From: Octopus vulgaris
Lineage: Eukaryota
NCBI GenBank assembly: GCA_951406725.2
Contig: OX597815.1
Coordinates: 181,598,001-181,662,000, forward strand
DNA length: 64,000 nucleotides
Reading direction: 5' to 3'
Part shown: one piece after another, positions 44,845-53,800 of the stretch
Position numbering within the stretch: position 1 is the first letter of the stretch
Layout: each line of letters starts with the position of its first letter
Position numbers: made by a program

Positions 44845-47800
44845 GGAATGCTCTTTGTTTTTCTATAATGTGGTCCTGATGCAGTGATACAGTCCAACTA
44901 TCTATCATTAGAATATTATCTTGTTGTAAAGATTTATCTTTATAACAAGACAAAAGAAAATGAAGAAAAATTGTCAGACTTTTGTACTGGATAATTCTTT
45001 TACTTATTTTTGTTACTTTTACGTTTCTTCACCCAGTAAGCTGTGGCCATGCTGGGTCACTGCCATCATATGAAAATAATTCTTTTTAGAAAGTGGACTT
45101 GATAATTCTTTTGTTTATAAAAGATCTTCATACTGATTTCCATTGAACAAATCTAAACCTACTTCAGTGGAGAAAAAATATAATGAATAAACGAATCCTA
45201 TTGTAATGCAGGTATTTAATTTATTGATCGACGAAGGATAAAAGATAAAAATGAACTTATTTTAACCCTTTCGTTACCGTATTTATTTTGAGATGCTTTG
45301 TGTTTCTTTCAATTATTTCAAATATAACAAAGAATTTAGTAAAATAACTTAGTTATCATTAAGCTAGTGTTAGGAATATAAATTGTGACTAAGGTTTGGT
45401 GGAAGATTTGAATTCAAAACTTATGAAAACAAGACATTTATACTAAAGAGCCAGAGCCAGTTTCAGCTGGGATGGTCACGAAAGGGTTAATCCTGAAATC
45501 CAAAAATATGGCTGGGAAAAGCAAACGGCTGAAATGCATTCCACTATTTCTAACTTACCTCTCTAAGCTCAAGGAGTCCTTTAAAGTGTAGCATGATCTG
45601 ATAGAAATAGTAGACAAATTTCCCTCAAATCATACCTTACTGTCGCAAAAGAACAAAAGTAAACATTACACAATGTATTTTTGGCATATACTGTTTGAGA
45701 CAAAATCTGGGACAGCCACCACTCAAACAACTTTAATCATAAGTGTGTTCATTCAAGATTGACCTGAGTGAGGACATCTCACAATTCACTGCTCAAATCT
45801 TTCTTAATATGTCTCCTTATTAAGGGGGCAGAATGTTAGCATACTTAGCGAAATGCTTAGTAGTATTTTGTCTGTCTTTAAATTCTGAGTTCAAATTCCG
45901 CCTAAGTCATCTTTGCTTTTCATCCTTTTGGAGTCAATAAATTAAGTACCAGTTGCATACTGGGGTCGATCTAATCAAATGGTCCCCTCTTCAAAATTTT
46001 TGGGCCTTGTGCCTAGAGTAGAAGAGAAACGTAAGCTTGCTAGGTGAAATGTTTAGCGGTATTTCATTTGTCTTTACGTTCTGAGTACAAATTCTGCAGA
46101 GGTTGACTTAGCCTTTCATCCTTTCGAGGTCAATAAATTAAGTACCAGTTGTATCCTGGGGTCGATCTAATTGATAGGCTCCTTCACCAAAATTTTCAGG
46201 CCTCATGCCTAGAGAAGAAAAGAAACTTTAGCACACTGGGTGAAATGCTTAGCAGTATTTTGTCTGTCTTTACATTCTGAGTTCAAATTCTGCTGAGGTC
46301 GACTTTGCCTTTTATCCTTTCAGGGTCATTATATTAAGTACCAGTTGCGTACTGGGGTCAATGAGGTCAGCTTAGCCTTTCATCCTTTCGAGGTCAATAA
46401 ATTAAGTACTAGATGTGTACTGGGGCTGATCTAATCGACTGGTCCCTTCCCCCAAAATTTTGGGCCTTGTGCCTAAAGTAGAGAAAAATATGATTCCTCA
46501 TCACTAGACAAAAGTGATTCAGATTTACAGGTGAATAAGTTATGTGTAGTAACATTCAAGCCTCTCCCATGTATGTGATCATCAGAAATGAAACAAAGTA
46601 ACCTCTAATGGTATTCGAAACTGTGATTCATAAACATCAGCTTATAACTTGGTTTCAAATTCTGACACAAGACCAGCAATTTGGTGCGTGGGGAAGTAAG
46701 TTAATTACATTGACTCAGTGTTAAACTGGTACTTATTTAATCGACCCTAAAAGGACAGAAAATAAAGTCGACCTTGGTGGAATTTGAACTCAGAATATAA
46801 AGGCAGAAAGAACACGACTAAGCATTTTGCCAGCTTTCTGACTTATATCAGCTTATAATTTACAATTTAATCTTCCTCAGAATAAATATTTATACTAATT
46901 TCTTGAATTATGAAAAAAAAAAAGAAAAGAACCCTGAAAAGCGATGAAATTAATGAATTATTTAATTGGTTTTATTTTTATCTGAAAACTCTAATTTCCT
47001 TCAACATCAAAAATAACTTGGTACAACTTTCTTAGTTCAATATGTTCATAGTTTTGAAACAAGGTGAAAACACTAATTGGAGAATAATCTTATTTATTAG
47101 CAATAGACATCAATTATCTTAATGATATTCCAACTAAAGAATTTGCAGAGAGTCTTAGAGGTTAATGTGTTTGTCATATTGCTTATGTCTTTTATCAGAG
47201 TTAATACTGATAAAAGGAGAAAACTAATAAATGGTAACAAGTCCTTCTCACTTATGATATATTAGAATTTAAATCTTAAGGCATGGTTTCTTCATAGCAA
47301 TATACTAAATATTCCTTTAAAACTAATTTTAGTTTATACAGTTCTATATTTGAGAGATGAGGATTTATGTACATTATTTACATTTGACGGATATTTGTTC
47401 TCAACTAGTTTGTTGTTAATGGGGTCTGGGAAGCCAGGAGGCTGCACCGGCCCCAGTCTGAATCTGGCAGTGATTCATGCACTGATATCTATATCTTAAA
47501 ATCAAGTTATTATTTTTACATACTAAAGTCTCTCTCTGGTCAAAAGGGTCAGAATAAGGAATGGTGAGCATTCAGGGTTTTGGTAGGAAATGTTTTTCTG
47601 GTGTATTAGTAATTGAATGGTGTGAATGATGTTGGATTGATTTTCGTTCAATAAAGGTATTTTAATGCTGCTAGCATTCTATTGCTGCATTGCAGAATTT
47701 TTTTGATTCTTGCGACCCTTTTACAAAGTCAATTTTGCCCTTCGGGTACTACATGGTGTAGTGGTTAAGGGCACGGGCTACTAACCCCAAGATTCTGAGT

Positions 47801-50800: not shown

Positions 50801-53800
50801 TTTCAAACTTTCCTATTGAATATTACATGAGAATAGTTACAGAGTTCGTTGCATGGGTTTTACTTTTAAAGCAATACTCTATATTACTGCATAATTGCTT
50901 TCACATTTGTCTTTCAAAAATAATTTTTTTTTGGAAAATAGTGAAACATTGCTCTTCCTCCTAGATATGAACAAATGGATGCTTTCAAAAAAGTTTCCAA
51001 AGTGCTTTTAGTTTAACCGATATATATCTTACCCAGTAACAACAATAGAAAAAGGAAGTACCTTTATCTTCCTTCCTAGAGCCATACATGCATACAGTAT
51101 TCATTTAAAATTAAGTACCCGAAGGGTAAAACTGACTTTGTAAAAGAGTCGCAAGAATCAAAAAAATTCTGCAATGCAGCAATAGAACGCTAGCAGCATT
51201 AAAATACCTTTATTGAATGAAAATCAATCCAACATCATTCACTCCATTCAATTACTAATATACCAGAAAAACATTTCCTACCAAAACCCTGAATGCTCAC
51301 CATTCCTTATTCTGACCCTTTTGACCAGAGAGAGACTTTTGTATGTAAAAATAATAACTTGATTTTAAGATATAGATATCAGCGCATGAATCACTGTCAG
51401 ATTCAGATTGGGGCTGGTGCAGCCTCCTGGCTTCCCAGACCCCAGTCAAACCATCCAACCCATGCCAGCATGGAAAACAGACGTTAAAGGATGATGATGA
51501 TGATGATGATATTGTTTAAGACGGCGAGCTGGCAGAATCGTTAGCACACTGGGCGAAATGCTTTGCAGTATTTCGTCTGCCGTTACGTTCTGAGTTCATA
51601 TTCCGCCGAGGTCGTCTTTGTCTTTCATCCTTTCAGGGTCGATTAAATAAGTACCAGTTACGCTCTGGGGTCGATGTAATCGACTTAATCCATTTATTTG
51701 TCCCCTCTATGTTTAACCCCTTGTGGGTAGTAAAGAAATAGGATGATGATATTGTTAATTACTTCTACATGCAGCCTTAGAAAGACATTTTCATTTTCAT
51801 TCAGCTACCAGGAATAACCTATCCCACAATACTAGCAACAACTGTCTTAGTTACTCAAACACTTGCAAACACCGCAATGTCAGTCAGAATTAATAATTTT
51901 TAGGTTAAAACTTTAATTGTTAGTGGAAGCACTCAAAACTTCATTCATGTTAATGGAATTTATAAATATTCACTGATGGAAATCGAAATCGAATTGAACC
52001 AGCCAGGATCCCTGGTCTGGTGGTACATAAAAAGCATTATCTGACTCGTGGCCGATGCCAGCGCCACCTCGACTGGCCTCCGTGCCGGTGGCATGTAAAA
52101 TACACCAATCCGACCATGGCCGTTGCCAGCCTCGCCTGGCACCTGTGCAGGTGGCACGTAAAAAGCACCCACTACACTCACGGAGTGGTTGGCGTTAGGA
52201 AGGGCATCCAGCTGCAGAAACATTGCCAGATAAGACTGGAGCCTGATGCAGCCTTCTGGCTTCCCAGATCTCCGGTCGAACCGTCCAACCCATGCTAGCA
52301 TGGAGAACGGACGTTAAACGATGATGATGATGATGATGATGATGGAACATCCAACTAACACTATAGCAATGCTTTATATCTTCACTAACCACAAAGCTGA
52401 AAGTACTGAGTAACTGAGGTTGAATTTGGTGTGAGAAAATATGCAGGCTTCAATTTACCGGTCCTTCTCAAGTTACGCACTGACATACCTCTCTGCTTTA
52501 GATTTCTAATCAAAACATAATTATGTCACTTTTAATTTTGAATGTGTACAACTTGCAATATGAATTTGCGGATTAAATATTCTTCACATTGACCACTTCT
52601 CATCTCTTTGTCTACTTAACACCTGATTTCCATCACATTACCACAAAATTCTGACAATATAGTTACGCAGACTTATAGTTTATTAGGCAAAATATTAACA
52701 GATTATTAAAGGAGGGAATAATAGAGCCAGGCAAATCACATTGGAGAGCTCAGGTTGTGATTACAAAGGATAAAACCCCCAAGAAGTGTCTAAGCATTGG
52801 CTATTCACAAACTGTTCATTAATTCACTCAGCTGGATGCATTCCCATTATCTTACATTGATGATAAAACAACTCAATATTCTCTATTCGTTGTCAAGGAT
52901 TTCCGCAATGCTTTCATCAAATACCAATTAAAATTAAAGGAAGGCTATACATTGCACCTGAAGAAGGCAATGGACTGTATCAATTTACCTGAGTCCCCTT
53001 TGGAGCAGCAAACATGGTTGCTTCTTTTCAGCCAGAAATTAACAAATTCGTCAAAAAAGATTTGCTGATAATCTGCCTGTATCTGCACAACATTACTATT
53101 TATGAGAAGATGACCAGTGTCATGATTACAATTTCTCTCACTTCTAGAATACAGCTGAAAGGAAAACTATTACATAAAATGACGAGAAAGTGTCTTTCTC
53201 TACAAGGAAATCATTAGCTATTCTTGGATATATTATTAAAAGACTGAAATTGGGTTTGATCCGGAATGGTTAAGATCAATTTGTGAAATTCTAATTCCAA
53301 AACATGAACAACTTAGTATACCAAAGCAAAGAAAAGGCCAAAAGGCACCTCCTTAGTTTAGTAGGGGGGGTAAGAGATAATAGCATAACGTGAGGCATCA
53401 CTTACTATTCTAAATGGATTTCGAGGTTTTCTGAATGTGTAAAGCCGTTATAAGGTATCAGGAATGCCAATGTCTGAAAAGGCCATAGAAACATTTAACT
53501 ACTTAAGAAAAGTGTTAAGGATGCAGTAACATCTGTTAATGATGTGAATATTTACTGTCAAAGTAAAAACTAATGCTTCAGATTATACTATTGCTACCTG
53601 TTAAGGCGGCGAGCTGGCAGACATGATAGTGCGCTAGGCGAAATGCTTAGCGGTATTTTGTCTGTCATTACATTCTGAGTTCAAATTCCGCCGAGGTCGA
53701 CTTTGCCTTTCATCCTTTCGGGGTCGATAAATAAAGTACCAGTTTCGCACTGGGGTCAGTGTAATCGACTTAATCCCTTTGTCTGTCCCTGTTTGTCCTC

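What the first reader, a model, noticed from the sequence alone, without database searches (positions are those of the whole stretch)
47338..51444. HHR-element halves bracket a 331-bp inverted copy of DNA from 3.4 kb away
Seen: 47420-47750 is the reverse complement of 51114-51444. The right copy is the likely donor because its family E repeat continues intact to ~51510, whereas the left copy cuts it. The left copy is flanked by the element tail on the minus strand, which begins about 3 nt past the predicted ribozyme cleavage site. On its other side is the element head on the plus strand, which stops at caagacacc, one base into the CTGATGA core. The 8-mer atacagtt occurs at both outer edges. 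Inference: both breakpoints falling at the ribozyme suggests template switching between cleaved element RNA and local genomic sequence, a route to PLE-driven local duplication.
Basis: partly seen in the sequence, partly recalled or inferred. Interest (0 to 1): 0.72.

Follow-up and report, generated by a model that had tools for sequence, protein, structure and literature searches.

The report
Split, inverted SINE insertion with captured DNA
One copy of a ribozyme-bearing short mobile element was inserted as two opposed halves, with a 331-base copy of DNA from 3.4 kb away trapped between them; this looks like a known kind of retrotransposition accident, not a new mechanism.

Summary
47420-47750 is the reverse complement of 51114-51444: 331 nt, 12 mismatches. 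On the left lies the element's 84-nt tail on the minus strand (47336-47419). On the right lies its 140-nt head on the plus strand (47751-47890). ATACAGTT sits at both outer edges (47336-47343, 47891-47898).

The right copy is the donor. It joins about 265 nt of non-repeat flank to the first 60 nt or so of one particular 5'-truncated family-E SINE, which continues only there.

The tail starts 3 nt after the predicted cut of a minimal hammerhead. The head ends at the first core base. The 38 nt between them are missing.

Best reading: a single retrotransposition event in which both nicked target strands primed DNA synthesis (twin or dual priming). It is bounded by an 8-bp target-site duplication, and a local filler was copied in when the two cDNA ends were joined.

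The same opposed topology occurs at two other places in the window. It is documented for Penelope-like elements and for L1.

A role for ribozyme cleavage is possible but not shown: only one of the two breakpoints is near the cut. Genome-wide tests could not be run.

The parts
47336..47343 (+). Left ATACAGTT: left copy of an 8-bp target-site duplication. It coincides with the reverse complement of the element's 3' terminus (AACTGTA plus T).
   Evidence: positions and counts of the 8-mer; ends of the tails of other copies.
47336..47419 (-). Tail piece of the element, 84 nt. It runs from the 4th base after the predicted hammerhead cut to the normal 3' terminus.
   Evidence: 87-91% identity to the tails of other copies; the alignment shows it begins at TTAACAACAAAC.
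47420..47750 (.). Filler: inverted copy of 51114-51444, 331 nt, 96.4% identical. Base 47750 (T) could belong to the filler or to the head.
47751..47890 (+). Head piece of the element, 140 nt. It holds a tRNA-like promoter region, a short (TAA)4, and the middle region. It ends at CAAGACAC plus C, the first base of the CTGATGA core. It lacks only a few bases at the 5' end compared with other copies.
   Evidence: 5' ends of other copies read.
47891..47898 (+). Right ATACAGTT: right copy of the target-site duplication, directly after the truncated head.
   Evidence: (the right flank has no significant similarity to the element: 68 of 500 shuffles score as high).
51114..51444 (+). Donor segment: about 265 nt of sequence with no other copy in the window, plus the first 60 nt or so of a 5'-truncated family-E SINE.
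51380..51510 (+). Family-E SINE copy, 5'-truncated (start approximate, 51379-51388), ending in (GAT)n. It continues intact past the right end of the donor segment.
   Evidence: (D5, D8).
41022..41161 (.). Comparison case: another copy of the same element with the same opposed layout. The reverse-complemented 3' end of the tail is followed by a sense piece from 14 nt before the core to about 57 nt after the cut. There is no filler, and the internal breakpoints overlap by a few bases. It is nested in the (TAA)n of a further copy.
26510..27305 (.). Comparison case: two near full-length copies joined head to head (minus-strand copy 26510-26838, plus-strand copy 26842-27305 or beyond), with only GTG between their 5' ends.

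Best explanation
A single aberrant retrotransposition of one RNA of a short non-autonomous element. The element consists of a tRNA-like head, (TAA)n, a middle region, a minimal hammerhead and an 85-nt tail. It was probably mobilised by a Penelope-like element.

Proposed steps:
1. The target was ...TAGTTT ATACAGTT TTGTTGG... The plus strand was nicked after ATACAGTT. That 3' end pairs with the last 7-8 bases of the RNA and primed cDNA synthesis through the tail. Synthesis stopped 3 nt short of the hammerhead cut position.
2. The minus strand, nicked 8 bp away, primed a second cDNA inside the same RNA (or on a second molecule or fragment) at the first core base. That cDNA ran to within a few bases of the RNA's 5' end. 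This gives two opposed halves and leaves 38 nt, essentially the whole ribozyme core, uncopied.
3. Before the two free cDNA 3' ends were joined, one of them was extended on a second template from 3.4 kb away. That template was either the local DNA or a local transcript. The extension added 331 nt in inverted orientation.
4. Repair left the 8-bp duplication on both sides.

Shown: the layout, the duplication, the donor direction, and the recurrence of the opposed layout in this family. Inferred: the order of events, the nature of the filler template, and the identity of the enzyme.
For: (1) Layout. The tail's 3' terminus abuts one ATACAGTT. The 3'-most point of the head abuts the other. The head's 5' end and the tail's 5'-most point face each other across the filler. 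This is exactly the geometry that twin priming predicts.

(2) The 8-mer is rare: 3 plus-strand and 2 minus-strand copies in 64 kb. Two copies exactly at the outer edges therefore mark a single event.

(3) The two halves do not overlap. Together they make up one element minus 38 nt.

(4) The same [reverse-complemented 3' piece][sense 5' piece] layout is found at 3 of the 5 places in the window that hold this element: 47.3 kb, 41.0-41.2 kb and 26.5-27.3 kb.

(5) The filler spans a specific 5'-truncation junction of one family-E copy, so it was copied from that locus.

(6) Literature.
- A purified Penelope-like element protein cleaves and extends both target strands, and starts reverse transcription internally without homology (PMC11167929, main text read).
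- Penelope-like insertions often carry an inverted 5'-truncated copy at the 5' end (PMC8557442, passages).
- Such inverted structures are flanked by 8-10 bp duplications and can capture host DNA, including a 304-bp piece in inverted orientation (PMC3846280, passages).
- L1 5'-inverted insertions keep their duplications and have closely spaced internal breakpoints; templated insertions occur at L1 sites (PMC11702581, passages).
Against: - The junctions show almost no microhomology: 0 nt at tail/filler, 1 nt at filler/head, none at head/duplication. Twin priming in L1 usually shows some.
- The 38-nt gap is larger than the 1-10 bp typical for L1 (PMC11702581).
- The left ATACAGTT is also the element's own terminus, so the 'duplication' rests on the right-hand copy plus 7-8 nt of target-RNA complementarity.
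- No empty site could be examined.
- No Penelope-like ORF is in the window: 19 of the 46 ORFs of 110 aa or more were scanned and none matched Pfam.
- Filler capture in the same event rather than later is inferred only from parsimony.
- Only 8 copies or pieces of the element could be examined.
Confidence: 0.6

Rival explanations
1. The hammerhead cleaved the template RNA before or during reverse transcription. The two cleavage products were copied separately from the two nicked strands. The cDNA that ran off the cleaved 5' end jumped onto a local template, so the ribozyme is the cause of both the split and the duplication.
For: - The tail piece starts 3 nt from the predicted cut. For one breakpoint in an element of about 262 non-simple bases, falling within 3 nt of the cut has a chance of roughly 7/262, about 3% (my arithmetic, post hoc).
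- The tail/filler junction is blunt, as in end-to-end template jumps.
- The missing 38 nt are the ribozyme core.
- The motif fits the minimal dimer-dependent hammerhead of Penelope-like elements (PMC4209133).
- Cleavage of a Penelope-like hammerhead is assisted by the element's protein (PMC11167929).
- In R2, ribozyme cleavage position shapes the 5' junctions (PMC3774820, abstract).
Against: - The head breakpoint lies 37 nt upstream of the cut. It is not at a cleavage end.
- The 3 nt after the cut are missing.
- A single hammerhead of this minimal type is reported not to cleave as a monomer in vitro (PMC4209133).
- In vitro, hammerhead mutants did not change insertion, and no RNA-seq reads ended at the cut (PMC11167929).
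- The only other split copy in the window breaks elsewhere, so 1 of 2.
- There is no covariation support for the fold: 0 of 11 pairs change on both sides. Rfam finds no hammerhead at these copies.
Confidence: 0.2
2. An ordinary full-length minus-strand insertion was rearranged later at the DNA level, by replication template switching or break repair. The head segment was inverted in place, 38 nt were lost, and 331 nt were copied from the nearby plus strand.
For: - Inverted templated copies from a few kb away are typical of replication-based template switching (general knowledge).
- The donor lies only 3.4 kb away on the same molecule.
- The 8-bp duplication would also be present around an ordinary insertion.
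Against: - The right-hand breakpoint would have to fall exactly between the element's first base and the duplication. No leftover of the head's 5' bases remains beside ATACAGTT.
- The same opposed layout recurs in this family without any filler.
Confidence: 0.1
3. Two independent truncated insertions happened to land on either side of a pre-existing inverted segmental duplication. Alternatively, the structure is an assembly artefact.
For: The window is very rich in SINEs, so chance neighbours are common.
Against: - The two pieces are complementary parts of one element, with the same rare 8-mer at both outer edges.
- The two arms differ at 12 of 331 positions, with a transition and CpG bias and derived changes on both arms. 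A fold-back artefact would not show this.
Confidence: 0.04

Closest known systems
L1 twin priming (5'-inverted insertions)
   Same: One RNA is copied as two opposed pieces. The 3' piece is joined to one target-site duplication by its terminus. The inverted 5' piece is joined to the other by its 3'-most point. The duplication is preserved and the internal breakpoints lie near each other (PMC11702581, passages; PMC2837659, abstract in a search listing only).
   Different: The element here is a short hammerhead-bearing non-autonomous element, not L1. The gap is 38 nt and not 1-10 nt. There is almost no microhomology. A 331-nt templated filler sits at the inversion junction.
Complex insertions of Penelope-like elements (inverted 5'-truncated copy head to head with a direct copy; host DNA capture)
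   Same: Head-to-head inverted arrangement, duplications of 8-10 bp, a hammerhead in the terminal region, cleavage and extension of both target strands, internal non-homologous initiation, and captured host DNA, including an inverted 304-bp piece (PMC3846280, PMC8557442, PMC11167929).
   Different: In the published cases the two arms repeat the same terminal sequence (pseudo-LTRs). Here the arms are complementary, non-overlapping halves of one short element. The captured DNA is a copy from 3.4 kb away at the junction. No autonomous partner was seen here.
R2 HDV-like ribozyme setting the 5' junction
   Same: [quoted passage not shown]
   Different: That is a different ribozyme class and a different element. 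Cleavage there is at the element's 5' end and is a normal step. Here cleavage would be internal and abortive, and it is unproven.
Hammerhead-bearing non-autonomous retroelements of animals (non-LTR retrozymes; minimal hammerheads of Penelope-like elements)
   Same: A small non-coding element with a type-I-like minimal hammerhead whose helix III is reduced to a 4-nt palindrome. It is attributed to Penelope-like machinery (PMC4209133, passages; PMC7229834 and bioRxiv 10.64898/2026.07.22.740005, abstracts).
   Different: Retrozymes are described as tandem arrays that give circular RNAs. The copies here are dispersed single units with a tRNA-like head and a (TAA)n tract.

Membership tests
Minimal (dimer-dependent) hammerhead of Penelope-like elements | Conserved core CUGANGA ... 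GAAA in type-I order | tested here: met
   All 7 core-bearing copies in the window keep C3, U4, G5, U7, G8, A9 and G12, A13, A14 (invariant columns). A6 is kept in 6 of 7. The copy in the finding has lost the core.
Minimal (dimer-dependent) hammerhead of Penelope-like elements | Extra base between positions 9 and 10.1, a long helix II closed by a G10.1-C11.1 pair, and a short helix I (features listed in PMC4209133) | tested here: inconclusive
   An extra purine is present in 7 of 7 copies. Helix II (6 bp) is paired in 95% of cells and helix I (5 bp) in 83%. With partners slid by 1-3 columns only 13-51% pair. The closing pair is G-C in 2, G-U in 4 and unpaired in 1 of 7. No pair changes on both sides, so there is no covariation support.
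Minimal (dimer-dependent) hammerhead of Penelope-like elements | Palindromic positions 15.2-16.2 in place of helix III (ACGU), followed by the cleaved base H17 | tested here: met
   GAAACGTT is present in 3 of 7 copies (c11, c41 insert, c40). A fourth (c43) has GAAACGTC, which keeps ACGU with C at position 17. The other 3 are mutated there.
Minimal (dimer-dependent) hammerhead of Penelope-like elements | Self-cleavage | not testable with these tools
   No Rfam hammerhead model matches these copies; Rfam models require a helix III. The cofold of two copies gives only a trivial full duplex.
Twin-primed / 5'-inverted retrotransposition insertion | Target-site duplication around the whole composite | tested here: met
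   ATACAGTT at 47336-47343 and 47891-47898; the 8-mer occurs 5 times in 128 kb of both strands. Caveat: the left copy is also the element's own terminus.
Twin-primed / 5'-inverted retrotransposition insertion | Two opposed, non-overlapping pieces of one element, outer ends being the 3' terminus and an internal point, with inner breakpoints close together | tested here: met
   the tail runs from +4 to the terminus and the head from the 5' end to C3, leaving a gap of 38 nt.
Twin-primed / 5'-inverted retrotransposition insertion | Microhomology at the internal priming site and at the inversion junction | tested here: not met
   0 nt at head/duplication, 0 nt at tail/filler, 1 nt at filler/head. 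Non-homologous internal initiation is, however, reported for a Penelope-like element (PMC11167929).
Non-autonomous element mobilised by a Penelope-like element | 3' region shared with an autonomous element that encodes RT and a GIY-YIG endonuclease | not testable with these tools
   No such ORF is in the window: 19 of 46 ORFs of 110 aa or more were scanned with no Pfam match. No eukaryotic genome collection was available.
Non-autonomous element mobilised by a Penelope-like element | Head-to-head inverted arrangements of copies | tested here: met
   Found at 3 of the 5 places holding the element. One further place (43.1-43.8 kb) is tail to tail between dissimilar copies.
tRNA-derived SINE | Recognisable tRNA-related 5' region with internal promoter boxes | tested here: inconclusive
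   ARAGORN finds 0 tRNAs. No Rfam tRNA match was found at E up to 10 in a stretch holding three heads. The box-A-like and box-B-like motifs are my reading by eye and from recall.

The most novel reading that the evidence does not exclude
Protein-assisted hammerhead cleavage inside the integration complex splits the template RNA. The two nicked target strands then each copy one product, and the cDNA that runs off the freshly cleaved end jumps onto nearby nucleic acid. If so, ribozyme-bearing Penelope-type elements would systematically seed small inverted duplications of local DNA at their insertion sites, and their breakpoints would pile up at the cut position genome-wide.
Probability: 0.15. 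Interest if true: 0.65.

Novelty: new member of a known kind. Interest (0 to 1): 0.3.

Why it matters
This is a clean, datable example of a short retroelement insertion duplicating a few hundred bases of neighbouring DNA in inverted orientation. The result is a 331-bp inverted repeat with a 3.4-kb spacer, a structure that can later promote inversion or hairpin transcripts. It also suggests that a hammerhead-bearing SINE-like family shows the double-strand priming signature described for Penelope-like elements. If a genome-wide survey showed breakpoints piling up at the ribozyme cut, that would give the long-unexplained hammerheads of these elements a measurable effect on insertion outcome. This single case does not show that.

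Tried and rejected
- Rfam at gathering thresholds on the whole window gave 0 hits. Rfam in E-value mode on 40800-43800, which holds four hammerhead copies, gave 7 weak matches. None lies on the element's ribozyme.
- ARAGORN found 0 tRNAs.
- Single-strand folds of four copies were no better than shuffles, with z from -1.29 to +0.76. The cofold of two copies gives a trivial full duplex and says nothing about an active dimer.
- Pfam on 19 ORFs found nothing. I did not scan the other 27 of the 46 listed ORFs, because by my reading they overlap simple repeats.
- I tested whether the donor's left flank hides a decayed element tail, since ATACAGT lies at 51092. The similarity is not significant: 117 of 500 shuffles score as high. 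The apparent hit of the donor's right flank (0 of 500) is only (GAT)n against a microsatellite.
- I looked for duplications around the other copies. None can be read with confidence, because they are decayed or lie in simple repeats.
- 3' or 5' transduction from a source copy beside the donor is rejected: no element lies next to 51114 or 51444.
- Direct RNA ligation of a cellular fragment to the cleaved tail is unlikely, because the first 3 nt after the cut are absent.
- Searches for prior descriptions found no paper that links hammerhead position to inversion or template-switch breakpoints in Penelope-type elements. Subscription journals are not covered.

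
Full report
**What is in the sequence**

The window has no N. It is AT-rich and dense with short interspersed repeats. The organism was not identified by any search.

The inverted copy is real. The repeat finder gives arms 47411-47750 and 51114-51453 (340 nt, 95%). blastn and a base-by-base comparison narrow this to 47420-47750 = reverse complement of 51114-51444, 331 nt with 12 mismatches, 96.4%.

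Ten of the 12 differences are transitions and 4 lie at CpG (my count from the list). Compared with six other family-E copies, each arm carries at least one derived change (one or two of the four sites depend on gap placement). A fold-back assembly artefact would not look like this.

**Donor and recipient**

Six other copies in the window share sequence with one another far upstream of the point where their homology to this locus begins. The copy at about 51380-51510 is therefore 5'-truncated.

The 331 bp consist of about 265 nt with no other copy in the window, plus the first 60 nt or so of that particular truncated E copy. E then continues to its (GAT)n end only on the right. A segment that spans one specific insertion junction must have been copied from that locus. 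The right copy is the donor, and the segment is not an independent member of a repeat family. Whether further copies exist elsewhere in the genome could not be tested.

**The element**

A BLAST of a full-length copy finds 8 copies or pieces at 5 places (11.4, 26.5-27.3, 40.8-41.3, 43.1-43.8 and 47.3-47.9 kb). The unit has five sections:
- a head with tRNA-like promoter motifs. This is my reading by eye; ARAGORN and Rfam do not call a tRNA;
- a (TAA)n tract;
- a middle region;
- a hammerhead-like motif;
- a tail of about 85 nt ending in ...AACTGTA.

The motif reads CTGATGA, one extra purine, a 6-bp helix II, GAAA, the palindrome ACGT, T, and then GTGTT, which pairs with GACAC just before the core. 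This matches the minimal, dimer-dependent hammerhead described for Penelope-like elements (PMC4209133, passages read). It places the cut between GAAACGTT and GTG.

Support for the fold is limited. 89.6% of 77 cells pair, against 13-51% when the partners are slid, but 0 of 11 pairs change on both sides. Rfam finds no hammerhead at these copies. Single-strand folds are no better than shuffles.

**Anatomy of the finding**

Read on the plus strand, the order is:
- ATACAGTT (47336-47343), which is at the same time the reverse complement of the element's terminus;
- the tail on the minus strand (to 47419), beginning at the 4th base after the predicted cut;
- the 331-nt filler (47420-47750);
- the head on the plus strand (47751-47890), starting a few bases short of the 5' end seen in other copies and ending at CAAGACAC plus C, the first core base;
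- ATACAGTT again (47891-47898).

The 38 nt between the two breakpoints, essentially the ribozyme core, are absent. The 8-mer occurs only 3 times on the plus strand and 2 times on the minus strand of the window, and two of those copies sit exactly at the outer edges. Neither outer flank resembles the element beyond that.

**Mechanism**

The geometry is that of twin (or dual) priming:
- the 3' piece is attached by its terminus to one copy of a target-site duplication;
- the 5' piece is inverted and attached by its 3'-most point to the other copy;
- the RNA's 5' end points inward;
- the two internal breakpoints lie close together.

The plus-strand 3' end left by a nick after ATACAGTT is complementary to the last 7-8 bases of the RNA, which explains why the duplication and the terminus coincide.

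The filler must have been added when the two cDNA 3' ends were joined. One of two things happened:
- the tail cDNA was extended on the plus strand (or a plus-sense transcript) of 51444 down to 51114; or
- the head cDNA, having reached the RNA's 5' end, was extended on the opposite strand from 51114 to 51444.

The junctions have 0 nt (tail/filler) and 1 nt (filler/head) of overlap, so they do not tell which. The short distance to the donor, 3.4 kb on the same molecule, favours a local DNA strand or a nascent local transcript over an abundant cellular RNA. That is an inference.

**Recurrence and literature**

The same layout occurs twice more in the window.
- At 41022-41161, the reverse-complemented end of a tail is followed directly by a sense piece running from 14 nt before the core to about 57 nt after the cut. 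There is no filler, and the breakpoints overlap by a few bases.
- At 26510-27305, two near full-length copies meet head to head with only GTG between them.

So 3 of the 5 places show head-to-head opposition. The 43-kb place is tail to tail between dissimilar copies.

The published record fits:
- A purified Penelope-like protein cleaves and extends both target strands and initiates internally without homology. Its hammerhead cleaves only with protein present, is not needed for insertion in vitro, and no RNA-seq reads end at the cut (PMC11167929, main text read).
- Inverted 5'-truncated copies at the 5' end are typical of Penelope-like elements (PMC8557442, passages).
- Such structures carry 8-10 bp duplications and can capture host DNA, including 0.9-1.5 kb spacers and a 304-bp inverted piece (PMC3846280, passages).
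- L1 5'-inverted insertions keep their duplication and have nearby internal breakpoints, and templated insertions occur at L1 sites (PMC11702581, passages).

**The ribozyme question**

The tail breakpoint is 3 nt from the predicted cut. For a single random breakpoint in about 262 non-simple bases, this has a chance of roughly 3% (my arithmetic, post hoc).

The head breakpoint is 37 nt upstream of the cut, which cleavage does not explain. In twin priming the two breakpoints are not independent of each other. The other split copy in the window breaks elsewhere, so 1 of 2. A stop caused by the folded or protein-bound ribozyme, run-off on a cleaved RNA, and coincidence all remain open. I put the ribozyme-driven version at about 0.2.

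**Rivals**

- Later DNA-level inversion of the head within an ordinary insertion. This would need a breakpoint exactly at the element/duplication boundary, leaving no head bases behind (about 0.1).
- Two independent insertions around an older duplication, or mis-assembly. The complementary halves, the shared rare 8-mer and the pattern of divergence contradict this (about 0.04).

**What stayed unchecked**

- No eukaryotic genome, read set or related species was available.
Copy number of the 331 bp, an empty site, long-read support and genome-wide breakpoint statistics are therefore all open.
- The supplements of the papers cited were not opened. Those of PMC4209133 may list mollusc hammerhead families that bear on the classification.

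**Verdict**

This is a new member of a known kind, a twin/dual-primed retroelement insertion with captured local DNA, of moderate-to-low interest unless a genome-wide survey ties the breakpoints to the ribozyme.

Noticed in passing
window 51092-51098: ATACAGT, 7 of the 8 bases of the target-site duplication and followed by a similar T-rich context, lies 16-22 nt left of the donor segment's left edge. The 7-mer occurs 5 times on the plus strand and 9 times on the minus strand in 64 kb. Finding it this close is about a 1-3% coincidence, judged post hoc. It could mean that a second nick by the same endonuclease defined the donor's end. The flank shows no significant element homology.
   Followed up: partly
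window 41022-41161: A second split and inverted copy of the same element, without filler, nested in the (TAA)n tract of another copy (41314-40856, minus strand).
   Followed up: partly
window 26510-27305: Two near full-length copies joined head to head with GTG between them. The junction GCCC-GT-GGGT is nearly palindromic, as described for inverted Penelope-like repeats. The arms are only about 85% identical. The plus-strand copy departs from the family tail about 28 nt after the cut.
   Followed up: partly
window 41947-42022 (+): A weak match to Rfam Hammerhead_HH9: 18.3 bits against a gathering score of 52, E = 0.49, with a CTGAAGA...GAAA core. It is single-copy in the window and probably chance.
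   Followed up: partly
window 43510-43545 (-): In the copy at 43.5 kb, a (CAT)n microsatellite replaces the 3' strand of helix I right after GAAACGT, that is, at the predicted cut position.
   Followed up: no
window 11521, 27266, 41101, 43301, 40931, 26606, 43540 (column 42 of alignment A3): The base closing helix II is C in 3 of the 7 core-bearing copies and T in 4 (C-G to T-G, a CpG-type change). The closing pair counted is G-C in 2, G-U in 4 and unpaired in 1, so most copies carry a weakened G-U closing pair.
   Followed up: no
window 48878-49102 and at least 20 other places: A SINE of about 225 nt, unrelated to the finding, is present in more than 20 copies at 73-96% identity across the window, often in tandem or adjacent pairs such as 32242-32829 and 17669-18216.
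   Followed up: no
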